DNA from: a virus
Taxonomy: Duplodnaviria; Caudoviricetes
DNA: 55,510 bases
Reading direction: 5' to 3' (one strand)
Virus record (IMG/VR): IMGVR_UViG_3300049005_000023
Coordinates: 1-55,510 of that record
Part shown: positions 1,367 through 52,937 of the stretch, one piece after another
Position numbering within the stretch: position 1 is the stretch's first letter
Layout: each line of letters begins with the position of its first letter
The notes under the pieces: model-generated
What the model saw: only the letters and a program-made list of their open reading frames with translations
Told to the model about the DNA's origin: nothing
The model's database searches: none
Made by a program: the position numbers and the translations under genes

Positions 1367-1804
1367 ATGCTCGAGCTCTACACCGACGGATCCGCCGGCC
1401 CGACCAACCCCGGCCCGGGCGGATGGGCGGTCACCACGCAAACCGAGATGGTCCTGACCGGCTGGTCGGCCAGTACGACGAACATCCGGATGGAAGGCAT
1501 CGCGCTGCTGGAGGCCTTCGGCTGGCTGGCCGGACGACCGGGCACCATCCACACCGACAGCCGCCTGTGGGTGGACACCATCTACCAGTGGGCGCCGCTG
1601 TGGTCCGGGCGCGGGTGGCGGAAGGCCAACGGCGAGACACCGGCCAATCTGGAGCTGGTGCAGAACCTCTTTGAGGCGTCGGTTCGCGGTGTCGCACAGG
1701 CCGTATGGGTCCGAGGCCACAACGGCAACCCAGGCAACCGCCTGGCCGACGAGTGGGCGAACAAGGCCCGTAAGCAAAGGCTCGGACGTGCCCGGGTCTA
1801 CTGA
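1367..1804 (+). CDS. rnhA: Ribonuclease HI
   Basis: YTDGS..NPGPGGW, TTNIRME, HTDS, WVRGHNG.PGN..AD motifs; ATG 1367 after ACCGGGAG. Confidence 0.95.
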   Translation: MLELYTDGSAGPTNPGPGGWAVTTQTEMVLTGWSASTTNIRMEGIALLEAFGWLAGRPGTIHTDSRLWVDTIYQWAPLWSGRGWRKANGETPANLELVQNLFEASVRGVAQAVWVRGHNGNPGNRLADEWANKARKQRLGRARVY

Positions 1805-3590
1805 TATCCGCCTGCACTGGGTGCAGACGCTGGACGACGCGTTTGCGCTCAAGAGGTGGTTAGGCGAGCGCCGCCCAGGCGGCTGGCTTGGCGTGGATAC
1901 TGAATCCGGCGGCCTCGACTGGTGGCGGGACAAGCTTCGGCTCGTTCAGTTCGGCGACCGGCATCAGGGCTGGGCGATCGAGTCGTCGGAGTGGATGGGC
2001 CTGATCAAGGAGTGTATGACGGCGTACGAAGGCCCGCAGCTGCTCTGGAACGTGAAACATGACCTGCACTTCATGGAGGTCAACGGCATCCCGACGAAAC
2101 GTTGGTGGATGCACGACGGCCGCGCGATGACACATTTGCAGGAACCGTGGCGACGCACCGGGCTGAAGCCAACCGCCACCCGCAAGCTTGGTCAGTGGGC
2201 CGGGTACGGCGAGGCGCAGCTGAAGCAGGCGATGATGGCCGGCGGCTACGGCTACCACGACATCCCCATCGAGCTGTTCTGGCAGTACTCCGCCTTCGAC
2301 ACCGTCATCACTGCGCAGACCGGTGAGGAGGTCTGGCCGGGCATTGAGCAGTCATACCGCTCGATCTACGATCTGGAGCTCGCGTCGACGTTCGTGCTGA
2401 CCGACATGGAACGCCGAGGCATCATGACGGACCGGGACTGGATGGTCCGGCATCTGGATGAGTGGACCCAAGCTCAGGACGTGATCGCGCTCCGGCTGCG
2501 AAACGACTACTGGATCGGTAACCCGGCATCGGACCGCCAAGTAGAGAAGTCGTTGCGGGATCTGGCCGGCTGGGTGCCGATCGTCTTCACGGACAAAGGC
2601 AACATCAGCCTGGAACGCGAAGTACTGCAGGGGATCGGGCATCCGATAGCCGACCTGGTGGTCGAGTGGCGCCAGCTGAAACGGCTGAGGGAGTACGCCT
2701 CCAGCCATCTGGAGCTCGCCGGTCCTGATGGGCGCCTGCACTGCAAGATCAACCCGCTGGGCACCCGCACTGGGCGCGAGTCGGCGAGCTCTCCCAATTT
2801 GCAGAACCTACCTCGCGACGACAACCGGATCCGGAACGGGTTTATTGCTTCGCCCGGTACAAAGCTTTTATTTGCCGATTATGATCAAATAGAAGGCCGA
2901 TTGTTTGCCTCTTTCAGCGGTGATGTAAATATGCTGGCAAGCATTAGATACGGAGATGAGATGACGGGCCGTGGTTACAGCGGCTACGACATGCACTCGA
3001 TGGCAGCCCGGATGATTTTCGGGATCGGGGTGGATCAGCCGGTCCCGAAAACACACCGGAACAAGGCAAAGACTGGGCAGTTCTCCAAGATCTATGGGGT
3101 CGGACTGGATAAGTTTGCCGCGCGCAACGGTATGACGCTGGATGAGGCGCGGGCCTTCTTTGCGGTGTACGAGGGGCAGTTTCCGGAGACCCGGAAATCC
3201 GGGTTCCAGTCCCGTATCACCAAGGAGCTGATCGACCGGGAGTGGGCCGAGGGTGAGGCCTACGTACTGACGGCGTACGGCCGAAAGGAGCCGTGCTACC
3301 CGAGCCAGGCGTACAAAGCCTTGAACTACAAGATTCAGGGCACCGCGGCCGACGTGCTGAAAGACCGGAAGGTTGCCCTGAGCAAGACCTGGCTGGGCGA
3401 GTGCATGCTGCTGAGCATTCACGACGAGGTGATTTTTGAAATCCCGGAAGACTCCGTAGCCGAAGCCGTACGAACAGTCCGAGAGACGATGCCGGAGCGA
3501 GACAAATTCCAGGTCCCCCTAACTGTTGGGATCGCAATCGGGGATCGGTGGGGCGAGAAGACCGACGTACCGGCATCCTATGCGGCATGA
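1788..3590 (+). CDS. polA: DNA polymerase family A (3'-5' exonuclease plus polymerase, no 5'-3' exonuclease)
   Basis: ExoI VDTES, TRTGR.S..PNLQNLP, motif A ADYDQIEGR, motif B RNKAKTGQF..IYG, IQGTAAD, motif C IHDEV. Confidence 0.96.
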   Translation: MPGSTDIRLHWVQTLDDAFALKRWLGERRPGGWLGVDTESGGLDWWRDKLRLVQFGDRHQGWAIESSEWMGLIKECMTAYEGPQLLWNVKHDLHFMEVNGIPTKRWWMHDGRAMTHLQEPWRRTGLKPTATRKLGQWAGYGEAQLKQAMMAGGYGYHDIPIELFWQYSAFDTVITAQTGEEVWPGIEQSYRSIYDLELASTFVLTDMERRGIMTDRDWMVRHLDEWTQAQDVIALRLRNDYWIGNPASDRQVEKSLRDLAGWVPIVFTDKGNISLEREVLQGIGHPIADLVVEWRQLKRLREYASSHLELAGPDGRLHCKINPLGTRTGRESASSPNLQNLPRDDNRIRNGFIASPGTKLLFADYDQIEGRLFASFSGDVNMLASIRYGDEMTGRGYSGYDMHSMAARMIFGIGVDQPVPKTHRNKAKTGQFSKIYGVGLDKFAARNGMTLDEARAFFAVYEGQFPETRKSGFQSRITKELIDREWAEGEAYVLTAYGRKEPCYPSQAYKALNYKIQGTAADVLKDRKVALSKTWLGECMLLSIHDEVIFEIPEDSVAEAVRTVRETMPERDKFQVPLTVGIAIGDRWGEKTDVPASYAA

Positions 3591-3601
3591 CATATACGTG
3601 C

Positions 3602-3632
3602 TTGACACGGTATCTATAGCATGGTTATATCG
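3602..3632 (+). promoter_or_regulatory. Promoter (perfect TTGACA -35, imperfect -10 near 3625-3633) with degenerate CTATAG-N5-TTATAT operator, driving the pentamer-repeat RNA and RAMP gene
   Basis: TTGACA at 3602-3607; same architecture as the other operator-containing promoters. Confidence 0.7.
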
Positions 3633-3639
3633 TCGTATC

Positions 3640-3706
3640 GACATGGCCGAGCTAGTCGGGCCGAGGTCAGGCATGGTACGGCGCGCCGCGTCGGGGCCAG
3701 GCGAGG
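3640..3706 (+). ncRNA. Pentamer (GGY-like + NN) repeat tract 1, putative guide RNA
   Basis: 13 in-phase units: GAC-AT GGC-CG AGC-TA GTC-GG GCC-GA GGT-CA GGC-AT GGT-AC GGC-GC GCC-GC GTC-GG GGC-CA GGC-GA, then GG. Confidence 0.8.
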
Positions 3707-3714
3707 AGAACACA

Positions 3715-3755
3715 GGACGATCGGCAAGCACCAGAGTTCGAGCCTCTGGCGTCCA
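3715..3755 (+). ncRNA. tRNA-like mini-structure (acceptor-like stem plus T-arm) between the two tracts; putative processing signal
   Basis: GGACG (3715-19)/CGTCC (3750-54) stem; CCAGAG/CTCTGG stem closing a 7-nt TTCGAGC loop. Confidence 0.6.
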
Positions 3756-3837
3756 CGCTGGTCAGGGCACGGCAAGTCGGTGTTTGGCGTTGCAAGGCCC
3801 GGCAAGTCTCCGCATAGCAGGGCTCCGCAAGGCAAGG
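3756..3837 (+). ncRNA. Pentamer (GGY-like + NN) repeat tract 2, putative guide RNA
   Basis: 16 in-phase units: CGC-TG GTC-AG GGC-AC GGC-AA GTC-GG TGT-TT GGC-GT TGC-AA GGC-CC GGC-AA GTC-TC CGC-AT AGC-AG GGC-TC CGC-AA GGC-AA, then GG. Confidence 0.82.
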
Positions 3838-3861
3838 GCACCACAACAACCGGGAGAAGTA

Positions 3862-4440
3862 ATGATCAAGTTCCGTATCGACATTCAAGGCACAGCGCCG
3901 CTACTGATGCACAGCAGCCGCTTGTCCAACCCGCTTGACCCCGCCACTAAGGCGCTGAAGAAGGTCACAGGGAAGCGCAGCAAAACCGACGAGGACCACG
4001 CCGAAGCGTCCCGCTTGGAGCATGCCGGCGGGCTCTACATCGATGCCGACCTCGGCCCATTCGTACCGGCTGAGAACATCAGCCGGAGCTTGGTGGACGG
4101 CGCGAAGCTGTCCAAGCGCGGAGTCAAGGTGACCCGTGGGCTGTTCATCGAAACAGACGTGAACGCGCTAGTTTACCGAGGACCCCGCGACGTGGAAGGG
4201 CTGTGGAAGGACGAGAATTTCCGGCACATGGCTTCGGTCAAGGTCGGCACGTCCAGAGTGATGCGCTGCCGCCCGCACTTCAAGGATTGGCAGGTCTCGG
4301 CAGACGGCCTGCTCGACGCCAACATCCTGGATCTGGACGAGCTGTCGGACATCGCGACCACTGCCGGTCAGGTCATCGGGCTCGGTGACTGGCGTCCGCG
4401 CTTCGGCCGCTATACCGCAACGATCACCGAGCTGAAGTAA
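3862..4440 (+). CDS. Stand-alone Cas7/RAMP-like RNA-binding protein (192 aa)
   Basis: N-terminal strand IDIQGTAPLLMH, P..NI..SL helix, V.R.RP.F..W hairpin and C-terminal glycine loop AG..IGLGDWRPRFGRY typical of RAMPs; ACCGGGAG RBS. Confidence 0.78.
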   Translation: MIKFRIDIQGTAPLLMHSSRLSNPLDPATKALKKVTGKRSKTDEDHAEASRLEHAGGLYIDADLGPFVPAENISRSLVDGAKLSKRGVKVTRGLFIETDVNALVYRGPRDVEGLWKDENFRHMASVKVGTSRVMRCRPHFKDWQVSADGLLDANILDLDELSDIATTAGQVIGLGDWRPRFGRYTATITELK

Positions 4441-4988
4441 TGGCACCGTTCGAACCGATCGGTCCTACGGCACGCTGGAAAACCGTTTACGAAGAGGTTC
4501 TGATCAAGAAGCGCCGGGATCAGATCGCCACGTATGAAGAGATCGGCGAGGTTCTAGGGCTGCACCCGGAAGATGCGCGGCATACCATTCAGATGGTCGT
4601 ACGCCGGGCAGCCAAAGAGCTACTGCTGCGCAACGATACTGCGTTGGAGGCAATCAACAACGTCGGGTATCGGCTGGTCATGCCGGACGAGCACACCGGC
4701 CTTGCACGTCGGCAGCAGAGACGTTCCAGCCGGGCACTGCAGCAGGGACACCAGCAAGTCACGCACGTCGACTTCACCAAGATGGATCCTGAAGCCCGCA
4801 AGGCAATAGAGACAATGGCGAACGCCTTTGCGATGCAGATGGAGTTTAACCGTCGTCTGGACGTTCGGCAGCAAAACCTGAAGAAGGCGTTGAACTCGGT
4901 GGTCAAACGGCAGGATCGCACGGAGGAAGAAACCCGACAGCGCCTCGAAGATCTAGAGCGGAAGATCCGCGAGTTGGGCGACAACTAA
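4440..4988 (+). CDS. Winged-HTH plus coiled-coil protein, translationally coupled to the RAMP gene
   Basis: TYEEIGEVLG helix, NNVGYRLV wing, C-terminal heptads; TAATG overlap. Confidence 0.65.
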   Translation: MAPFEPIGPTARWKTVYEEVLIKKRRDQIATYEEIGEVLGLHPEDARHTIQMVVRRAAKELLLRNDTALEAINNVGYRLVMPDEHTGLARRQQRRSSRALQQGHQQVTHVDFTKMDPEARKAIETMANAFAMQMEFNRRLDVRQQNLKKALNSVVKRQDRTEEETRQRLEDLERKIRELGDN

Positions 4989-5458
4989 TGCGCCTTTTTG
5001 TCCTGGACCCCGGCAAAGCCTCCGGCTGGTTCTGCGTTGACTTCACCGTCGGCGGCTGGACCGGCGGGGAGCTCCCGCATGAGCAGATGCTGGACTGGCT
5101 GGACCCTCGGCACGGCAACGACTCGCCGCTGACCCTGTGGCGTCTGGACCGTGTGGTCACGGAGGCTTTCCGCATCGGCCCGCAGACCTACCAGAACGTC
5201 TCGTCCGACGCCGAGGCCTGGTCCATCAAGCAGATCGGCGCCGTCGAGATGTGGTGCCGCCGTTTGCAGTTGCCTATGGACCGCCAGATGCCGTCAGCGA
5301 TGAAGTACGACGAGGACGGCAGCAAGCTGAAGAAACTGGATTGGTGGCCCGCGATGCCCGGCGTGAAAGGCGAGAAGGGTCACCGCCGCGCCGCGGCGAA
5401 GCACGCGCTGAAGTGGGGCGTCGACCACCGCTTCATCGACCCGGGGGTGTTCCTGTGA
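4988..5458 (+). CDS. RuvC-like Holliday junction resolvase
   Basis: N-terminal FVLDPGKASG, VVTEAF; size and context fit actinophage RuvC-like proteins. Confidence 0.7.
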   Translation: MRLFVLDPGKASGWFCVDFTVGGWTGGELPHEQMLDWLDPRHGNDSPLTLWRLDRVVTEAFRIGPQTYQNVSSDAEAWSIKQIGAVEMWCRRLQLPMDRQMPSAMKYDEDGSKLKKLDWWPAMPGVKGEKGHRRAAAKHALKWGVDHRFIDPGVFL

Positions 5459-7443
5459 TCGCCGACTACGATCCTGCCAGCAACCACTTCATCCTGCACA
5501 CCAGCCTCACCGAGAAAGACCTGGCACGCCAGGTCCCCGGCGCATCCTGGCAGGAGCGGATGCCGAACACCTACACCGGTCAGCCCGGTACCTGGGTGGT
5601 CACCGCGAGCTGGCCGGCGTACTGCGCGATCAACGGGATCTTCAAGCACACCCTCACCCCCTCGGAAAGCTACCGCGAATGGGCAGAGACGTCCTGGAAA
5701 ACCCTCTACGAGCCGCTGACGCTGACACGGTTCAGCACCGACGCGAACATCGGCCCGGGTCCGATTGCCGCGCGGCTGTGGCCGTTGCAGCGCGTCGCCG
5801 TGCAGACGATGGTGTGGGCGGAGAAGTACCTGGTCCTGGACGACATGGGCGGGGGGAAGACGGCCACCACCCTCGCGGCGCTGAAGCTGGCCGCCGCGGT
5901 GCACGGTGAGGCCGCGGTGTTCCCGGCGATCATCGTCTGCCCGAACAAGGTCCGCCGGTCGTGGAAGAAGATCGCCCATGAGGATCTCGGCGACGGCAAG
6001 GGCCCGCTGTGGCCCGAGCTCCGGCTGGAGGCCATGCCGAAGGGCAAGGCCGCACAGCGCAAGGTGCTGGAGCGGTTCCTGCGGAAAGAGCACGATCCCG
6101 AAGGCGGCAACTGTGCTCCCGAGATCTGCGGCGGGACACGCTACGACCCGTGCGGGCGAGCGTGGCCTGAAGGCGACCCGGACACCTGGCCCCAAGTGCT
6201 CGTTATCAACTGGGAGGCGCTGCGCCTGCTGTCCCGGGTGGAGAAGTTCGGGCAGATCGAGCTCGCCGAGAAGGACCGCACCCCCGGCCCGCTGAACGAG
6301 ATCCCGTGGCGGACCTTCGCCGCCGACGAGGTGCACCGGGCGAAGAACCGTACCGCGCTGCAGACCCGCGCGCTGAAGGCGATCGCGAACGGTACGCCGT
6401 CCGTCGGCACCGGACCCTGCCGGTTCCGATGGGGGCTCACCGGCACTCTCGTATCCGAAGATGCTGCCGAGGCCTGGAGCATCTGGAACCTGATCGACCC
6501 TGGCGCGCACCCGGCGTACACCCGGTTTGTGGACCGGTACGCCACACAGCTCTACAACGGCTGGGGTGGGATGGAGATCGGCGGCCTGAAGCCGGAGACC
6601 GCGGAGGAGTACCACGCCGCGCACCTGCCCTTCAGCATCCGCAGGCTGCGTGAGCAGTTCGACCCGTTCAAACCGAGGCGGGTGCACCAGACGCTGACTG
6701 TCCCGATGGAGACCAAGCAGGCCAAGGCGTACCACGAGCTCCGTAAGAACATGGCTGCTGCGCTGGACGGCGGCACGCTGACCGCGACCGAGAACATGCA
6801 CAAGTCCAACCGGCTCTTCCAGCTTGCGCAGGCATGGGGCGAGATGGTCGACAAGGGCCGGCGCGACCCGATCAGCGGCGAGCCGATCCTGGACCTGTTG
6901 CTGAAGGCACCTTCCAACAAGGTCAGCGCGATGCTGGAGATCATCGAGGACTTCGGCATCTCTTCGCGGCCGGGTCCGGGCAACGGCCGGGCGATCGTCT
7001 TCGGCGCGCAGTCCCGCCAGCTGATCGGCCTGTGCGAAGACGCGCTGAACAAGGCAAAAATCCCATACAGCCTGATTGCCGGCGGGATGTCAGACAGCGC
7101 ACAAGACCTGCAGGAACGCCGTTTCGAGACGGGGCAGACCCGGGTATGCCTGTGCGTGGTCTCGGCTGCGAAGGAAGGCCTGAACAGCCTGGTGCGCGCG
7201 GACACGCTGGTCTTCCTGCAGAAGTCCGACAGCAACAACGACAATGAGCAGTTCCGAGGCCGTATCGACCGGCCGGGGCAGACTGCGAAATCGGTGACCT
7301 TCATTGACGTGGTCTCGGAGGGGACGCTGGAGGAGTTCGTGCAGAAGGAACGGCTGGAAGAGAAAGCCGCAACCCTGCAGCAGTTCCTGCAGGACGCCCG
7401 GGTGCTGCAAGAGATGCTCCGGTTCCCAGGGACGTCGGGGTGA
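5455..7443 (+). CDS. SNF2-family helicase
   Basis: DDMGGGKT, ADEVHRAKN, GLTGT, EGLN, QFRGRIDRPGQ. Confidence 0.93.
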   Translation: MIADYDPASNHFILHTSLTEKDLARQVPGASWQERMPNTYTGQPGTWVVTASWPAYCAINGIFKHTLTPSESYREWAETSWKTLYEPLTLTRFSTDANIGPGPIAARLWPLQRVAVQTMVWAEKYLVLDDMGGGKTATTLAALKLAAAVHGEAAVFPAIIVCPNKVRRSWKKIAHEDLGDGKGPLWPELRLEAMPKGKAAQRKVLERFLRKEHDPEGGNCAPEICGGTRYDPCGRAWPEGDPDTWPQVLVINWEALRLLSRVEKFGQIELAEKDRTPGPLNEIPWRTFAADEVHRAKNRTALQTRALKAIANGTPSVGTGPCRFRWGLTGTLVSEDAAEAWSIWNLIDPGAHPAYTRFVDRYATQLYNGWGGMEIGGLKPETAEEYHAAHLPFSIRRLREQFDPFKPRRVHQTLTVPMETKQAKAYHELRKNMAAALDGGTLTATENMHKSNRLFQLAQAWGEMVDKGRRDPISGEPILDLLLKAPSNKVSAMLEIIEDFGISSRPGPGNGRAIVFGAQSRQLIGLCEDALNKAKIPYSLIAGGMSDSAQDLQERRFETGQTRVCLCVVSAAKEGLNSLVRADTLVFLQKSDSNNDNEQFRGRIDRPGQTAKSVTFIDVVSEGTLEEFVQKERLEEKAATLQQFLQDARVLQEMLRFPGTSG

Positions 7444-36050: not shown

Positions 36051-37544
36051 TCACCGTCGGCCCGCCAACCTCTCGTCGTTGTAGCCGCCACCTTCGCCGG
36101 TCCGCGGCTGGAGCAGCAGATAGGTGCCGGCCCACACGACCGCATCCAGCAAGTTCGGCGAAACCTCGCCCGGCGCACCGGTGAACGTGGTGGCCTCCTC
36201 CTCGAACTGCTCGTGCGTCGTGCCAACCAACCGGATCCGGTACGGCAGCCCGGCCTCGGCCAGGTCCTCGTCGTACGCGAACAGGCCGGCCACCGGGCGC
36301 GCCCGGGTGATCTTGCCCTCCGACGCCCAGACGGTCTTGACAATCGCGTACCTGTCCTTGTTCTGAATCAGCGTCTTGACCCACTTGCCGCCGTGGTTCT
36401 TTTCGACCACGATCGCATCGCAGCTCTTCTCCGCAGCCAGCTGGACGGTCTTCTTCGCCATCATGTTCGGGTCGGCGCGCCAGCCGTCTGTGAACTCCAC
36501 GTATCCGACGCCGTCCATGCCGAGGCTTACCACCGCTACGCCGTACGCGTCACCTTTGCCGTCCTCGTTGCCGTCCGACGGGTCGACCGCGAGTACCCGG
36601 GCCTGGACCACGACGTTGAGCTTGAACCATTCCGGTGTGACCCGGCCGCCATCCAGGTCGGACTGCTGCCACAGCGCCCCCTCCACGGAGTCGATAGCGT
36701 CCCAATCGCCGTGCTCCATCGCCAGCGCCAGTGCTTTGTTGGTGTTGCGCAGCGCCCGGATCCGGTTGCGGTACGACGGGTCCCGCGCCTCCAGGATCGG
36801 GTTGTCCGCCAGCGTGGCCGGCACGAACACCCGGCTGTTCGGCTCGGGGTGCTCGTTGGACGGCTTCGGCGTCCACACCTCGAACGGGATCGGCGGTTGG
36901 CTGCCGGTGTAGTCGTCTGGTTTCGGCTTGACCCACCGGCGCTTCACCCATTTGTGCCCCCGCCCACCGGGGTTGCAGGTCGCGATCAAGTGGGAGCGGA
37001 TCCCTGGCCCGGGCGGGCGGAGCCGGACGATCATCCGGTCCACCTGTTCTTCCTCAAACTCGGTGATCTCCTCGAAGGCGATAACTCCGTACTCGGTGCC
37101 CTGGTAGTCCTCAACGCTCTTCAGGTCCGGCAGCGAGGCCATGTCCAGCACCGACCCGTTCGGAAATGCCCAGGTGTGCTTGACCTCGTTGTACCGTCCG
37201 CCGTGCCGCATGTACATCTGCTTGGACCGCGGGATCAGGGTCCGTTCGAGCGACGGGTGCACTCGCCGGAAGATAACGCCGCGGTTCATCGGGAAACCGA
37301 GCATCTGGTCGAGCACATAGTGCAGAAGCCACTCGGACTTGCCGCCGCCGGCCGCGCCGCCGTACAGCGTCTCAACTGCCCGAGTTGCCAGCTCGGTGGC
37401 CAACTGCTGCTTAGGCTGCGGCAGCCACTCCTCGTCCTCATGCTGCCGCACCCGGGCTAGCAGCTCGGTAACCTCCCGGCGCTCGTCCTGCGTCATCAGC
37501 TCAATCTCAGCGTCCGACGGGATCCAGAGCGGTTCGGTAGTCAT
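36051..37544 (-). CDS. terL: Terminase large subunit
   Basis: LYGGAAGGGKS Walker A, FEEITEF Walker B, ATCNPGG, AVDPS nuclease Asp, SPN.LDA.VW. Confidence 0.95.
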   Translation of the reverse strand: MTTEPLWIPSDAEIELMTQDERREVTELLARVRQHEDEEWLPQPKQQLATELATRAVETLYGGAAGGGKSEWLLHYVLDQMLGFPMNRGVIFRRVHPSLERTLIPRSKQMYMRHGGRYNEVKHTWAFPNGSVLDMASLPDLKSVEDYQGTEYGVIAFEEITEFEEEQVDRMIVRLRPPGPGIRSHLIATCNPGGRGHKWVKRRWVKPKPDDYTGSQPPIPFEVWTPKPSNEHPEPNSRVFVPATLADNPILEARDPSYRNRIRALRNTNKALALAMEHGDWDAIDSVEGALWQQSDLDGGRVTPEWFKLNVVVQARVLAVDPSDGNEDGKGDAYGVAVVSLGMDGVGYVEFTDGWRADPNMMAKKTVQLAAEKSCDAIVVEKNHGGKWVKTLIQNKDRYAIVKTVWASEGKITRARPVAGLFAYDEDLAEAGLPYRIRLVGTTHEQFEEEATTFTGAPGEVSPNLLDAVVWAGTYLLLQPRTGEGGGYNDERLAGRR

Positions 37545-37557
37545 AGAGAAATGATAG

Positions 37558-37584
37558 AGCCCGCCAGCACGAGACTGGCGGGCT
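37558..37584 (-). terminator. Hairpin separating accessory genes from terL, followed by TATCAT -10
   Basis: AGCCCGCCAG/CTGGCGGGCT 10-bp stem. Confidence 0.65.
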
Positions 37585-37608
37585 TCCACCCTTGCACCCG
37601 AGAGGAGT

Positions 37609-51494: not shown

Positions 51495-52937
51495 ATGACC
51501 AATTACCAGAGCACTAGCTACAACGTCCGCGAAGACCGCCCCGACGGCGCATCGCCGTACGCAACGGCGGAATTCGTCACCACGCAGGACCCAACCGCAC
51601 CCGACCACGTCCTGCGGGTGTCTGCCGCTGGAATAGGGTTCACCCTTGAGGATGTCCGCGGGCTCCAAGCCTTCCTGAACGACCAGTTCGGGCGGAACCG
51701 GGAGCGTGTACTCAGCATCGACGTGGACGACGAAGGTCACGGCTCGATGGTGCTCGCGTCCCGCGACCCCGACGGCTCGGTCACGCTTGAAAAGGACTGG
51801 ACTCTCGCGCCTGGGGACGTTGAGGTTCTGACTACAGCAGGCACGACGTTCACGCGGACAGCTCCGGATACGGCCTGGAACCCGCTTGAGGCAGTTCCGC
51901 CGGTGCAGCCGCGCCAGTGCCCGGTCATCTACAACGGCGTGCAGTGCTCTGAACCCGAAGGCCACCAGGACAGTACGCCGGAGCGACCTGGAACGGTACA
52001 CATGTTCGGTCGTTCCGCCCAAACCGGAGACGGGGCGGTCACGCCCCCAGCCAATCCCCACGTCCAGCCCGTTGCACCGGGCGGGGAGCAGGCTGCCGAG
52101 AGTGCGACTGCTGGGCAAGCAGCAGGAGAAACCACCCCGTCTCCCACCCCCGACGAGCAGCCGTCCAAGAAGCCGACCCGGCGCAAGAAGGAGGAAATCG
52201 CCTACGACCGTGCTCTCGAGGCCTTCCGCGCGCAGCCGAACAGCCAGCTGGAGTACACCGACCTGGTGAAGGCCGCCGAGGCGCTGCGGAAGCGGTTCCC
52301 GGACAACTCGCGGCTGGAAGCTTACGACCGCCACGTCCAGGAGCAGGACATCAAGTGGCTGACTGATCAGCCCTCCGGGCCGAAGCCTGCCGCCCCACCG
52401 CTGCCGGAGGCTGTGGGCACCTCCGACGCCGGCTCTGAGCCGCACTTCGCCCCCGAGCCCGTGGCTGCACAACCCGCACCGTTCCAGCCTCCAGCGCTTT
52501 CGATCCCAGCACCCCAAGACGTCTCCCCCGAAGAGTCTGCCGCCGCGCAGGCCTTCCCCTGCCAGCACATCTCCGACGTCTCCGGCCGTCCCTGCATCCG
52601 CGCCGCCGGCCACGAGCTCACTAACCCGCCGAAGCCCCACATCTACGCGCCGCTCCCGGATGGGCAGTCGCTACCGGTTCCGGCGTTTGTCCCGCCGCTG
52701 CCCCCACAGCCAGAGACCCCGGCCTTGAGCCAGCAGGGCTTCGCTTCATGGCCGGTCGGACAGCCGGTTGTCGACGGCCAGGGTTTCACGCAAGCCCCGA
52801 TTCCGCCGTTCCAGATCCCGCAGCCCACTGCCGAGACGCAGGGCCAGCAACTGCTCAGCTTCCAGGTCCCGCCAACGCCGCAGGGCGCTGAGCTCCAGCC
52901 GCCGGCTCCGGCCGCGCCGCCGTGGGGGCAGCAGTAA
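51495..52937 (+). CDS. Hypothetical Pro/Gln-rich protein with two C..C...GH motifs
   Basis: AGGAG RBS; low complexity. Confidence 0.75.
   Translation: MTNYQSTSYNVREDRPDGASPYATAEFVTTQDPTAPDHVLRVSAAGIGFTLEDVRGLQAFLNDQFGRNRERVLSIDVDDEGHGSMVLASRDPDGSVTLEKDWTLAPGDVEVLTTAGTTFTRTAPDTAWNPLEAVPPVQPRQCPVIYNGVQCSEPEGHQDSTPERPGTVHMFGRSAQTGDGAVTPPANPHVQPVAPGGEQAAESATAGQAAGETTPSPTPDEQPSKKPTRRKKEEIAYDRALEAFRAQPNSQLEYTDLVKAAEALRKRFPDNSRLEAYDRHVQEQDIKWLTDQPSGPKPAAPPLPEAVGTSDAGSEPHFAPEPVAAQPAPFQPPALSIPAPQDVSPEESAAAQAFPCQHISDVSGRPCIRAAGHELTNPPKPHIYAPLPDGQSLPVPAFVPPLPPQPETPALSQQGFASWPVGQPVVDGQGFTQAPIPPFQIPQPTAETQGQQLLSFQVPPTPQGAELQPPAPAAPPWGQQ

What the first reader, a model, noticed from the sequence alone, without database searches (positions are those of the whole stretch)
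3602..4988. Phage-encoded RNA-guided system: GGY-NN pentamer guide tracts plus a lone Cas7/RAMP-like protein
Seen: promoter (TTGACA 3602); tract 1 of 13 in-phase pentamers (3640-3704); a tRNA-like spacer; tract 2 of 16 pentamers (3756-3835); a 192-aa protein with a C-terminal glycine loop (GLGDWRPRFGRY); and a coupled wHTH gene. In each unit the first three nt are quasi-constant (GGC/GGT/GTC/xGC, third base always C or T) and the last two vary freely. No cas1, cas2, cas3, cas5, cas6 or CRISPR repeat-spacer array is present. Established: Cas7-type RAMPs polymerise along RNA with a fixed nucleotide periodicity. Inference: each subunit binds one pentamer, gripping GGY and presenting NN for pairing, so the target is read non-contiguously (NN-skip-NN). 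The two decodings below support this. From memory it resembles recently reported phage VIPR-type (GGY/NN) systems; I cannot verify that here.
Basis: partly seen in the sequence, partly recalled or inferred. Interest (0 to 1): 0.97.

Follow-up and report, generated by a model that had tools for sequence, protein, structure and literature searches.

The report
Actinophage VIPR locus with tRNA-like spacer
This soil phage carries a VIPR system, a recently described RNA-guided gene-silencing system that phages use against rival phages, and here its two guide RNAs are separated by a small tRNA look-alike that may tell host enzymes where to cut.

Summary
Window 3602-4988 is a VIPR locus (Viral Interference Programmable Repeat; bioRxiv 10.64898/2026.04.26.720920) in a complete 55.5-kb actinobacterial phage.

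- **Protein:** the 192-aa protein matches one solved structure by sequence, 'SUSP1 Vipr protein' (PDB 36pp, E 3e-36). It keeps the GGY-gripping residues and models as a Cas7-like RAMP.
- **Accessory gene:** the downstream 182-aa gene is homologous to SUSP1's vap.
- **Tracts:** the two pentamer tracts are the strongest in the window, scoring 31 and 27 against a maximum of 22 in 100 simulations. 78 of 80 related viral loci also carry such tracts.
- **Novelty of the core:** the system itself is already published.

Two additions:

1. The 'tRNA-like spacer' (3715-3755) is a conserved, covarying acceptor/T-arm mimic that sits between tracts in actinobacterial VIPR arrays. The main texts of the three VIPR papers never use the word tRNA. 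I infer a processing signal for RNase P/Z; this is untested.
2. Under the published 1-nt-skip rule, the first 11 of guide 2's 16 dinucleotides exactly match a conserved terminase motif in 42 viral contigs. Full-length matches are only 24-26 of 32.

Guide 1 has no target. No RNA data exist.

The parts
3602..3607 (+). -35-like hexamer TTGACA, a possible promoter of the vrRNA-vipr-vap transcript
   Evidence: Read directly in the sequence. The -10 is weak, and the consensus scan found 0 promoter-like sites in 3300-5600. Inferred, not shown.
3640..3704 (+). vrRNA tract 1: 13 GGY/NN-type pentamers (guide 1)
   Evidence: score 27 against a simulated maximum of 22. Position 3 is a pyrimidine in 13 of 13 units.
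3705..3714 (+). Short 3' end motif of tract 1 (GGAGAACACA): a GGR unit plus an A/C-rich stretch
   Evidence: Most tracts in related loci end in a similar GGR-plus-8-to-12-nt motif, whether or not a minihelix follows (listing).
3715..3755 (+). tRNA-like minihelix 'M': 5-bp acceptor-like stem, 11-nt linker with a GG, 6-bp T-stem, T-loop TTCGAGC, acceptor 3' strand, then a discriminator-like A
   Evidence: It is the only hit of a strict pattern scan in the whole window, both strands. Covariance model R1 scores it 45.1 bits, but this copy was in the training set. Both stems covary across 71 distinct copies. Conserved GG and T-loop are shown.
3756..3835 (+). vrRNA tract 2: 16 pentamers (guide 2). 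It starts right after M and ends 26 nt before the vipr ATG.
   Evidence: score 31. Units 1-11 match a terminase motif under the 1-nt skip rule.
3836..3861 (+). 3' end motif of tract 2 (GGGCACCACAACAACC) and the ribosome-binding site GGGAGAAG of vipr
   Evidence: Read in the sequence. In 16 of 20 upstream arrays of relatives, the last tract abuts vipr in the same way without a minihelix (my count from the listing).
3862..4440 (+). vipr: 192-aa Vipr protein, a single-RRM RAMP related to Cas7
   Evidence: PDB 36pp 'SUSP1 Vipr protein', E 3e-36. 38% identity to phage phiSUSP1. phrog_4652, E 4e-58. AF2 pLDDT 91.1. 60 Foldseek matches at E<=1e-3, the listed ones being CRISPR effector-complex subunits, mostly Cas7-type.
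4440..4988 (+). vap: 182-aa accessory protein with an N-terminal winged-helix-like domain and a long helical tail. Its start overlaps the vipr stop.
   Evidence: Homologous to the gene after vipr in SUSP1 (29% over 82 aa, E 2e-6), MakoManhole gp77 (E 1e-16) and LittleE gp33 (E 8e-17). The AF2 model has H-b-H-H-b-b topology in residues 12-80. Foldseek matches are weak and to winged-helix proteins only.

Best explanation
Window 3602-4988 is a VIPR (Viral Interference Programmable Repeat) locus of the SUSP1-like kind, probably the paper's type II, in a complete actinobacterial phage genome.

Proposed mechanism, by homology with SUSP1:
1. One transcript starting near 3602 carries guide tract 1, a tRNA-like minihelix, guide tract 2, vipr and vap.
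2. Vipr protomers polymerise one per pentamer along each tract.
3. Two neighbouring protomers lock G1, G2 and Y3 of each unit and leave N4N5 free.
4. The free dinucleotides pair with double-stranded DNA, skipping one target base per unit, and transcription of the target is blocked.
5. Vap, a winged-helix-like DNA-binding protein, assists.

Targets are rival mobile elements, not the phage itself. Guide 2's best candidate target is the terminase large-subunit gene of a family of Streptomyces/Thermobifida-type phages and prophages.

The minihelix between the tracts most likely marks where host tRNA-processing enzymes (RNase P at its 5' side, RNase Z or similar at its 3' side) cut the array into separate guides.

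What is shown here: homology, conserved contact residues, the fold, the tract statistics, conservation and covariation of the minihelix, and the target matches. What is inferred: transcription, RNA binding, silencing, the identity of the target, and the processing role.
For: **Protein**
- The only solved-structure match by sequence is 'SUSP1 Vipr protein' (36pp_D, E 3e-36, residues 5-188).
- tblastn finds 130 phage records, including phiSUSP1 at 38% identity over 96% of the query.
- Alignment A1 places the window's H17, K33, R39, E71, K82, G87, R137, D176, W177 and R178 at SUSP1's H17, K33, R39, E71, K82, G87, R138, D177, W178 and R179. Eight are invariant in all six proteins; E71, D176 and W177 are shared with SUSP1 but differ in one to three of the other sequences. 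The structural paper assigns these positions to GGY binding and DNA contacts.
- The AF2 model has pLDDT 91.1 and pTM 0.83. Foldseek against PDB gives 60 matches at E<=1e-3, and the listed ones are CRISPR effector-complex subunits, mostly Cas7-type RAMPs (type VII Cas7, Csm3, Cmr; TM 0.34-0.57).

**Locus**
- In the SUSP1 locus my scan recovers one upstream and three downstream tracts, as the paper describes.
- 78 of 80 IMG/VR relatives have at least one sense-strand tract scoring 20 or more.
- Over 1577 units in 109 tracts, positions 4 and 5 are near-uniform.
- The vap homology rests.

**Phage context**
- The record is a complete virus with direct terminal repeats. It encodes terminase, portal, major head and tape-measure proteins.
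- No Cas1 and no CRISPR-like array were found.

**Minihelix**
- The model finds 78 hits at E<=0.01 in 32 of 84 sources, all on the vipr strand (33 of them were training copies).
- 95.9% of cells pair, against 62.3% in shuffles. 10 of 11 pairs change on both sides. The covariation score is 0.81 against 0.18, reached by 0 of 500 shuffles; slid controls give 0.10-0.13.
- The element lies between tracts. It starts a median 12 nt after a tract, and the next tract starts at its 3' end.
- In five whole bacterial genomes the only 3 hits lie just upstream of vipr on its strand: 42 and 142 nt upstream in one genome, about 220 nt in the other.

**Target**
- The first 10 dinucleotides of guide 2 in the 1-nt-skip pattern give 42 exact hits in IMG/VR.
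- All 42 fall on one terminase motif (V/I)DFGFTNPFVLQ, with the skipped base at the codon wobble position.
- The same dinucleotides read backwards or spaced by 2 nt give 0 hits.
- A guide from another VIPR locus (L042) matches the portal gene of the same contigs at 27 of 32, but only 20 of 32 under 0-, 2- or 3-nt skips. None of 1500 shuffles reaches 25.
Against: - **No expression data.** No RNA run holds the stretch. Transcription, processing and binding are therefore untested.
- **Degenerate tracts.** Only 7 of 13 and 7 of 16 units are canonical GGY.
- **Weak promoter.** The promoter scan is negative.
- **Incomplete target match.** Guide 2 matches the terminase sites at only 24-26 of 32 positions (29, 11 and 2 contigs), at or below the paper's 80% rule. 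The mismatches cluster in the 3' five units, and the structural paper describes assembly spreading from the 3' end. The 42 hits are homologous sites, so they count as one event.
- **Cultured relatives match less well.** Their terminases score only 20-22 of 32.
- **Guide 1 has no target.** Nothing was found in the window, in 85 related loci or in IMG/VR by exact search. In 401 Actinomycetes genomes there were 3 hits with 3 mismatches against 1 control hit. Five whole target-family records gave nothing.
- **Folding energy gives no support.** The T hairpin is in the minimum-energy fold, but the acceptor stem is not, and the z-score is -0.16.
- **Vap fold is weakly supported.** Foldseek gives 0 hits at E<=1e-3.
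Confidence: 0.92

Rival explanations
1. The minihelix is not a cutting signal. It is the 3' tail of vrRNA 1, the counterpart of the SUSP1 pseudoknot: a structured cap that stays on the guide, protects its 3' end and nucleates or stops Vipr assembly.
For: - It lies 3' of tracts after a short conserved linker (median 12 nt), where SUSP1 has its tail.
- In SUSP1 the pseudoknot caps the filament, and protomers appear from the 3' side.
Against: - In 16 of 20 upstream arrays the tract next to vipr has no minihelix, and most downstream arrays end in a tract without one (my count from the listing). Many guides would then lack a tail.
- The next tract starts directly at the element's 3' end.
- The loop keeps the exact tRNA T-loop consensus, and the linker keeps a GG in 70 of 71 copies. 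This points to recognition by tRNA-specific factors (inference from established tRNA biology, recalled).
Confidence: 0.3
2. Tract 2 is mainly a cis-acting leader, not a trans-acting guide. Vipr binds the GGY/NN tract in its own 5' untranslated region, 26 nt before the ATG, and throttles its own translation.
For: - Tract 2 abuts the ribosome-binding site.
- The same layout recurs in 16 of 20 upstream arrays of relatives.
- Its last units (CGCAA GGCAA) resemble the common ...GGCAA GGCA(A/T) endings of tracts in other loci, so part of it is not variable.
Against: - Its dinucleotides differ from those of relatives.
- Eleven consecutive dinucleotides fit a foreign terminase motif in codon register, which a pure leader would not need.
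- The two roles do not exclude each other.
Confidence: 0.15
3. The terminase match of guide 2 is a coincidence, and the real target is an element absent from the databases searched.
For: - Full-length matches are only 75-81%.
- The 42 hits are one homologous site.
- The middle 10 dinucleotides found no terminase in the metagenome collection, only a chance kinase match at 23 of 32.
- In the local control, short guides often reach 80% by chance: 25 of 930 shuffles.
Against: - Six other patterns of 20-24 fixed bases, including the backwards and 2-nt-skip controls, gave 0 hits in the same collection.
- The match is in codon register in an essential gene.
- A second VIPR locus targets the neighbouring portal gene of the same contigs.
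Confidence: 0.4
4. The pentamer periodicity is chance or compositional, and the protein is an unrelated small phage protein or part of a degenerate CRISPR-Cas system.
For: - The genome is 63-66% G+C.
- Tandem Repeats Finder sees nothing.
- Pfam has no family for the protein.
Against: - Tract scores exceed every one of 100 simulations.
- 78 of 80 homologous loci carry tracts on the sense strand.
- The protein is homologous to the solved SUSP1 Vipr.
- No Cas1 or CRISPR-like array is present.
Confidence: 0.01

Closest known systems
SUSP1-type (type II) VIPR system of Escherichia phage phiSUSP1 (bioRxiv 10.64898/2026.04.26.720920 and 10.64898/2026.04.26.720927; PDB 36pp)
   Same: - Vipr protein of the same length, 38% identical, with the GGY- and DNA-contact residues kept.
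- A vap homologue directly downstream with overlapping stop and start.
- GGY/NN tracts of 13 and 16 units, within or at the edge of the published 9-16 range.
- Phage-borne, with no cas genes found.
- No self-target, as the paper reports for its systems.
   Different: - Actinobacterial, high-G+C phage rather than an enterobacterial one.
- Both guides lie upstream of vipr, with no downstream array.
- The units are more degenerate.
- The 3' tail is not the SUSP1 pseudoknot. Tract 1 is followed by a tRNA-like minihelix, and tract 2 by the vipr ribosome-binding site.
- I could not verify the type assignment, because the type tables are in closed supplements.
Class 1 CRISPR backbone subunits (Cas7 family: Csm3, Cmr4, type VII Cas7)
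   Same: RRM core, glycine-rich loop and thumb. The listed Foldseek matches are CRISPR effector-complex subunits, mostly of this family. One protomer binds per fixed RNA step.
   Different: - Sequence identity is only 7-14% and TM-scores 0.34-0.57.
- The step is 5 nt, not 6.
- No repeat-spacer array, no Cas1 and no partner subunits.
- The target is read two bases in three.
Hammerhead-ribozyme-interspersed vrRNA arrays of type I and V VIPR systems (named in the Results and legend of fig. S19 of 10.64898/2026.04.26.720920)
   Same: A structured RNA element sits between successive guide tracts and would release single guides from one transcript.
   Different: Here the element is not a self-cleaving ribozyme. 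It is a mimic of the tRNA acceptor/T-arm, which would depend on host enzymes. The word 'tRNA' occurs 0 times in the main texts of the three VIPR papers.
tRNA-punctuated RNA processing: mitochondrial tRNA punctuation, MALAT1 mascRNA, engineered polycistronic tRNA-guide RNA arrays for Cas9 (all recalled, no paper read here)
   Same: A tRNA or tRNA-like fold flanking a functional RNA is cut by RNase P and RNase Z, which releases the neighbour.
   Different: - The element has no D-arm or anticodon arm: 40 nt, and neither ARAGORN nor Rfam calls it a tRNA.
- Cleavage has not been shown.

Membership tests
VIPR system | Vipr protein: a RAMP homologue with one RRM core, a glycine-rich loop and a thumb | tested here: met
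   - 36pp 'SUSP1 Vipr protein', E 3e-36.
- Alignment A1 keeps H17, R137, D176, W177, R178, K33, R39 and K82.
- AF2 pLDDT 91.1.
- The listed Foldseek matches are CRISPR effector-complex subunits, mostly Cas7-type RAMPs.
VIPR system | Tandem GGY/NN (YNNGG) pentamer tracts of about 9-16 units next to vipr, on its strand | tested here: met
   - Tracts of 13 and 16 units, scoring 27 and 31 against a simulated maximum of 22.
- Pyrimidine at position 3 in 29 of 29 units.
- Canonical GGY in only 14 of 29 units.
VIPR system | Hypervariable NN with conserved GGY across relatives | tested here: met
   Over 1577 units from 32 sources the frequencies are G 0.87, G 0.82 and C+T 0.97, with positions 4 and 5 near-uniform. 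Positions 1-3 are partly circular, because tracts were chosen by a GGY score.
VIPR system | Minimal locus: vipr plus a vap accessory gene, with no cas genes or CRISPR array | tested here: met
   - Homologue of the SUSP1 gene that follows vipr.
- Cas1 absent.
- No CRISPR-like repeats.
- Other cas families were not searched one by one.
VIPR system | Structured, invariable 3' tail after each tract (a pseudoknot in the SUSP1 clade) | tested here: inconclusive
   No SUSP1-like tail is present. Tract 1 is followed by a conserved tRNA-like minihelix. Tract 2 is followed only by a short motif and the ribosome-binding site.
VIPR system | Targets read by the 1-nt-skip rule, with natural targets in rival mobile elements and none in self | tested here: inconclusive
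   - No self-target.
- Guide 2 matches a terminase motif at 24-26 of 32 in 42 contigs.
- Guide 1 has no target.
- The rule is supported for the clade by the L042 guide: 27 of 32 under a 1-nt skip, 20 of 32 under other skips, and 0 of 1500 shuffles reaching 25.
VIPR system | vrRNAs are expressed, co-purify with Vipr, and silence transcription | not testable with these tools
   No RNA run holds the stretch. This needs bench work.
tRNA | Full cloverleaf with anticodon arm, detectable by tRNA finders | tested here: not met
   ARAGORN finds 0 genes in the window. Rfam shows no tRNA match at E<=10 in 3400-4100.
tRNA-like acceptor/T-arm minihelix (substrate type of RNase P and RNase Z; definition recalled) | Coaxial acceptor plus T stem of about 12 bp, T-loop consensus G-TTCRANY-C, and a purine discriminator after the 3' strand | tested here: met
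   - Stems of 5-7 and 6 bp that covary.
- Over 71 distinct copies: loop closing pair G-C in 71; T, T and C in 71, 64 and 71; a purine in 70; A in 66.
- The following base is A in 53 and G in 18.
- The linker carries a GG in 70 of 71.
- Cleavage itself was not tested.
CRISPR-Cas class 1 | Repeat-spacer array, adaptation genes, multi-subunit effector | tested here: not met
   The locus has two genes only.

The most novel reading that the evidence does not exclude
In actinobacterial phages and prophages, VIPR guide arrays are punctuated by a 40-nt mimic of the tRNA elbow: an acceptor/T-arm helix plus a GG that could dock on the T-loop. The host's own RNase P and RNase Z would then cut the array into single guides. 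This would be a natural counterpart of the engineered tRNA-guide RNA arrays, and a third way of guide biogenesis beside Cas6-type cutting and hammerhead self-cleavage.

In this phage one of the released guides silences the terminase gene of rival Streptomyces/Thermobifida-type phages and prophages, reading only codon positions 1 and 2, so that synonymous changes cannot give escape.
Probability: 0.35. Interest if true: 0.65.

Novelty: new variant of a known kind. Interest (0 to 1): 0.45.

Why it matters
The core finding is ordinary in the sense that it is already explained. It is one more VIPR system, a kind published in 2026. Its value is as a clean, complete example from an uncultured soil actinophage.

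Two things go beyond the papers' main texts:

- **A possible new route of guide biogenesis.** A whole actinobacterial branch of VIPR replaces the pseudoknot tail with a covarying tRNA-like element placed between guides. This makes guide biogenesis by host tRNA enzymes directly testable in cultured phages that carry it. Mycobacterium phage LittleE, Gordonia phages Trine and MakoManhole all have laboratory hosts.
- **Support for the targeting rule in a distant clade.** The 1-nt-skip rule, worked out in E. coli and Pseudomonas systems, also picks out significant targets in this branch. The targets are in conserved head-packaging genes (terminase and portal), which fits the idea that VIPR is a weapon between phages.

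Both points may already be in the papers' supplements, which I could not open.

Tried and rejected
**Searches of the region itself**
- Tandem Repeats Finder on 3400-4100: 0 rows.
- Rfam at E<=10: only four chance matches, none a tRNA.
- Pfam for Vipr and Vap: nothing above the cut-offs.
- megablast of 3400-5000 against phages: no match. The nearest cultured DNA polymerase is 34% identical, so the host stays unknown beyond Actinomycetes.

**Target searches that found nothing**
- The window under 0- to 3-nt skips.
- 85 related loci.
- IMG/VR exact patterns: full guide 1, 3' 10 units of guide 1, 5' 10 units of guide 1, and 3' 10 units of guide 2.
- Guide 2 in 5 and then 401 Actinomycetes genomes at up to 3 mismatches: 0 hits.
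- Guide 1 in 401 genomes: 3 hits with 3 mismatches against 1 control hit, which I take as chance.
- Guide 1 in five whole records of the terminase-target family: 0 hits.
- The metagenome scan with guide 2's middle 10 units gave one hit, in a eukaryote-like kinase DFG motif at 23 of 32. I rejected it as chance.
- Match fraction alone does not discriminate for 10-unit guides: 25 of 930 shuffles reach 0.80.

**Structure and fold**
- RNAfold of the spacer region: z-score -0.16. The whole leader gives z -0.08. Energy alone gives no support.
- Foldseek of the Vap model: no match at E<=1e-3.

**Sequencing runs**
- No RNA holder is listed. The only holders are two soil-metagenome DNA runs of one study, one of which may be the source.
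- Laying their contigs showed identical sequence only, and no variant of the tracts.

**Tools and material not available**
- Supplements of the three VIPR papers were closed, so the type tables, the list of 664 loci and the tail figures were not seen.
Full report
**What is there**

The window is a complete 55,510-bp virus record with direct terminal repeats, at 63-66% G+C. It encodes a terminase large subunit (36051-37589, minus strand), portal, major head protein, tape-measure protein, primase/helicase and a DNA helicase.

The finding lies between a DNA polymerase I gene (1671-3590) and a run of overlapping genes on the + strand. In order, the region holds:
- TTGACA at 3602-3607.
- 13 in-phase pentamers at 3640-3704.
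- A 10-nt motif, GGAGAACACA.
- A 40-nt hairpin-in-a-helix at 3715-3754, followed by an A.
- 16 in-phase pentamers at 3756-3835.
- A 26-nt stretch with a ribosome-binding site.
- A 192-aa ORF (3862-4440).
- A 182-aa ORF (4440-4988) whose ATG overlaps the previous stop.

**Is the periodicity real?**

Position 3 of the pentamer is C or T in all 29 units, although only 14 of 29 are canonical GGY. A simple score rewards G, G, Y and penalises other bases. With it the two tracts score 31 and 27, the best two on the + strand of the whole window, and the next best is 16. In 100 first-order Markov simulations of the window, both strands, the best tract averaged 16.0 (sd 1.7, maximum 22).

One minus-strand tract at 51616-51527 scores 24. 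It is antisense inside an ORF and has no minihelix nearby, and I did not follow it further. Tandem Repeats Finder sees nothing, as expected when two of five positions vary freely.

**What the protein is**

Pfam has no family for it, and PHROGs places it in phrog_4652 of unknown function (E 4e-58). Against all PDB chain sequences the only match is 36pp, 'SUSP1 Vipr protein', at E 3e-36 over residues 5-188. tblastn against phage genomes finds 130 records, among them Escherichia phage phiSUSP1 at 38% identity over 96% of the query.

SUSP1 is the model system of the VIPR papers. I read the Results and three Methods sections of bioRxiv 10.64898/2026.04.26.720920, and part 1 of 2 of the Results of 10.64898/2026.04.26.720927. 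I read only the outline and searched passages of 10.64898/2026.10.15.759431.

In the SUSP1 locus my tract scan recovers one tract upstream of the hit and three downstream of the next gene. The paper describes exactly this arrangement, so the hit is vipr.

The six-protein alignment places the window's H17, R137, D176, W177 and R178 at SUSP1's H17, R138, D177, W178 and R179, which the structural paper says hold G1 and G2 and help hold Y3 of the next unit. E71 (Y3 pocket) and K33, R39 and K82 (DNA contacts) also align. Eight of these positions are invariant in all six proteins; E71, D176 and W177 are shared with SUSP1 but differ in one to three of the others. M72 is N and K88 is V in the window.

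An AlphaFold2 model built on 35 homologues has pLDDT 91.1 and pTM 0.83. Foldseek against PDB gives 60 matches at E<=1e-3. The listed ones are CRISPR effector-complex subunits, mostly Cas7-type RAMPs: type VII Cas7, Csm3 and Cmr subunits, at TM 0.34-0.57 and 7-14% identity. That fold library stops at 8 April 2026 and does not hold the Vipr entry.

The family is large: 796 proteins at E<=1e-5 among 997 candidates.

**The accessory gene**

The 182-aa protein is homologous to the gene that follows vipr in three phages:
- SUSP1: 29% over 82 aa, E 2e-6.
- Gordonia phage MakoManhole (annotated 'DNA binding protein'): 33%, E 1e-16.
- Mycobacterium phage LittleE: 27% over 176 aa, E 8e-17.

Its model (pLDDT 81, pTM 0.50) has helix-strand-helix-helix-hairpin topology in residues 12-80 at pLDDT above 90. 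Two long helices follow. Foldseek gives no match at E<=1e-3. The weak top matches (E 0.03-0.1) are almost all winged-helix DNA-binding domains.

'Coupled wHTH gene' is therefore right in layout and plausible in fold. [quoted passage not shown]

**Relatives carry the same RNA**

Of 80 IMG/VR loci encoding a relative (35-70% identity), 78 have at least one tract scoring 20 or more on the vipr strand. The two without are L048 and L063. Twenty-seven of the 80 loci also score on the opposite strand. In the loci I looked at (L002-L004), these were the reverse-complement shadows of the same tracts.

Over 1577 units in 109 tracts from 32 sources, the base frequencies are G 0.87, G 0.82 and C 0.83 plus T 0.14. 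Positions 4 and 5 are close to uniform. The first three figures are partly circular, because tracts were picked by a GGY score.

The genome has no Cas1 and no CRISPR-like array.

On all features I could test, this is a VIPR locus. The homology of both genes to SUSP1 points to the paper's type II. I could not check that assignment, because the type tables are in supplements that were closed.

**The 'tRNA-like spacer'**

It is not a tRNA. It is a conserved structured element with these parts:
- A 5-bp stem, GGACG/CGTCC.
- An 11-nt linker.
- A 6-bp stem, CCAGAG/CTCTGG.
- A 7-nt loop, TTCGAGC.
- The 3' strand of the outer stem follows the inner stem directly, as the acceptor strand follows the T-arm in tRNA.

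A strict pattern scan finds it once in the whole window and never on the minus strand. The same scan finds 56 copies in 30 sources, all on the vipr strand.

I built a covariance model from 33 copies. It finds 78 matches at E<=0.01 in 32 of 84 sources, all on the vipr strand. The 33 training copies, the window's among them, match by construction.

On the 71 distinct sequences:
- 95.9% of cells form a standard pair, against 62.3% in shuffles.
- 10 of 11 pairs change on both sides.
- The covariation score is 0.81 against 0.18, reached by 0 of 500 shuffles.
- Sliding the partners gives 0.10-0.13.
- The alignment was fitted to the model, which favours the structure.

The loop keeps the tRNA T-loop consensus. 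The closing pair is G-C in 71 of 71; T, T and C occur in 71, 64 and 71; a purine follows in 70; and A in 66. The linker is 11 nt in 65 of 71 and holds a GG in 70 of 71. The base after the element is A in 53 and G in 18, followed by CGC in most.

From established tRNA structure (recalled): a 12-bp acceptor/T helix, that T-loop, a GG that can dock on it like G18-G19 of the D-loop, and a purine discriminator are the features read by RNase P, RNase Z and other tRNA enzymes.

Folding energy alone does not support the outer stem in the window's copy (z -0.16).

**Where the element sits**

In the 32 sources it alternates with tracts: tract, element, tract, element, tract, vipr.
- It begins a median 12 nt after a tract end (65 of 71 cases within -8 to 30 nt).
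- The next tract begins at its 3' end. The median is -3 relative to the model's end, which includes four flanking bases (58 of 70 within -8 to 10).
- By my count from that listing, the tract next to vipr lacks the element in 16 of 20 upstream arrays, the window included. Most downstream arrays also end in a tract without one.

In five whole bacterial genomes (34.5 Mb) the model hits three times, always just upstream of vipr on its strand: 42 and 142 nt upstream in one genome, about 220 nt in the other. Only 150 candidates per genome were scored in that search.

Among 62 genome loci it occurs in 6, all titled as Actinomycetes. It is absent from the other 56, six of which are also Actinomycetes.

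The main texts of the three VIPR papers never use the word tRNA. A full-text search for vrRNA plus tRNA returns nothing relevant. The papers describe a pseudoknot tail in SUSP1 and hammerhead-interspersed arrays in types I and V.

My reading is that the element punctuates the array and is cut out by host tRNA enzymes. I put this at about 0.45 odds for the processing role taken alone. The main rival is a retained 3' cap, at about 0.3. Neither was tested.

**What the guides aim at**

I used the paper's rule, replacing each GGY by one wildcard base and searching both strands.

Neither guide matches the phage's own genome better than guides with shuffled dinucleotide order: 18 of 24 and 21 of 32.

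Guide 1 found nothing anywhere.

The first ten dinucleotides of guide 2 gave 42 exact hits in IMG/VR:
- All 42 are antisense to one conserved peptide...W(T/S)(V/I)DFGFTNPFVLQCWAEDPDGRL, with the skipped base at the codon wobble position.
- The genes checked are terminase large subunits: Terminase_3 at E 1e-8 and phrog_2 at E about 1e-32 for L186 and L190, and phrog_2 at E 1.5e-36 for L166.
- The eleventh unit also matches.
- The five 3' units mostly do not, so full-length matches are 24 (29 contigs), 25 (11 contigs) or 26 (2 contigs) of 32. That is at or just below the paper's 80% line.

The controls were as follows:
- The same pattern read backwards gave 0 hits, and so did the same dinucleotides with a 2-nt skip.
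- Four other real sub-patterns gave 0 hits.
- The 42 hits are homologous sites and count as one event.

The phage's own terminase is only 23% identical to the target family and lacks the motif. The nearest cultured terminases are those of Thermobifida phage P1312 (56%) and Streptomyces phages Dagobah and Xkcd426. Their sites match only 20-22 of 32. Two of the five whole target records examined are classed as proviruses.

An independent check comes from a 16-unit guide of another VIPR locus (L042, 49% Vipr identity). It matches the same contigs at 27, 26 and 25 of 32 under the 1-nt skip, but only 20 under 0-, 2- or 3-nt skips. None of 1500 shuffles of its dinucleotide order reaches 25; the maximum is 23. 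The site lies in the portal gene next to the terminase (phrog_2662, E 6e-68).

The 1-nt-skip rule therefore holds in this branch, and packaging genes of one phage family are a target class. That makes the terminase reading for guide 2 plausible, at about 0.5, but not established.

**Verdict**

The system is a known kind, published from April 2026, and this locus is a new example from an uncultured soil actinophage.

Its vrRNA architecture is a variant that I did not find in the papers' main texts: tracts separated by a tRNA-like element, with the last tract fused to the vipr leader.

No RNA data exist for it. The supplements that might already describe this clade were closed.

Noticed in passing
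window 51527-51616, minus strand: A third pentamer-periodic stretch scores 24 against a simulated maximum of 22, with a core of six good GGY units. It lies antisense inside the 5' part of a 480-aa ORF (51495-52937) that has no PHROG match, and it has no minihelix nearby. It could be chance or a solo guide.
   Followed up: partly
window 4988-5458, + strand: A 156-aa ORF whose ATG overlaps the vap stop (TAATG), so a third gene is coupled to the vipr-vap pair. It belongs to phrog_1981 of unknown function (E 2e-9). Its N-terminus (LDPGKASGW) looks RuvC-like to me, from recall and untested. It is followed by a DNA helicase gene (phrog_62).
   Followed up: no
L003 (Gordonia phage Trine, NC_047991.1) 3085-3359: Two GGY/NN tracts and three tRNA-like minihelices lie inside the annotated CDS gp40 (locus 3091-3894). 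The start of that gene call is probably wrong, and the vrRNA array is unannotated.
   Followed up: partly
L042 2524-2603 versus L166 8190-8237: A guide of another actinobacterial VIPR locus matches the portal gene of uncultured phage contigs at 27 of 32 under the 1-nt skip. None of 1500 shuffles reaches 25. This looks like a clean natural target pair for this clade.
   Followed up: yes
L047 3695-4553: The longest array seen: eight minihelices alternating with seven tracts downstream of vipr, with two alternating minihelix sequence types.
   Followed up: no
window 3836-3851 and the tract ends of related loci: Most tracts end with one or two near-constant units (...GGCAA GGCAA/T), followed by a GGR unit and an A/C-rich 8-12 nt stretch. 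This holds whether a minihelix or the vipr ribosome-binding site follows. It may be the true constant 3' end of the guides in this clade.
   Followed up: partly
L012, L013, L014, L016, L024, L025 and other actinobacterial loci: About half of the actinobacterial VIPR loci have spacers of 35-60 nt between tracts that the minihelix model does not match. They may hold a diverged or different spacer element.
   Followed up: no
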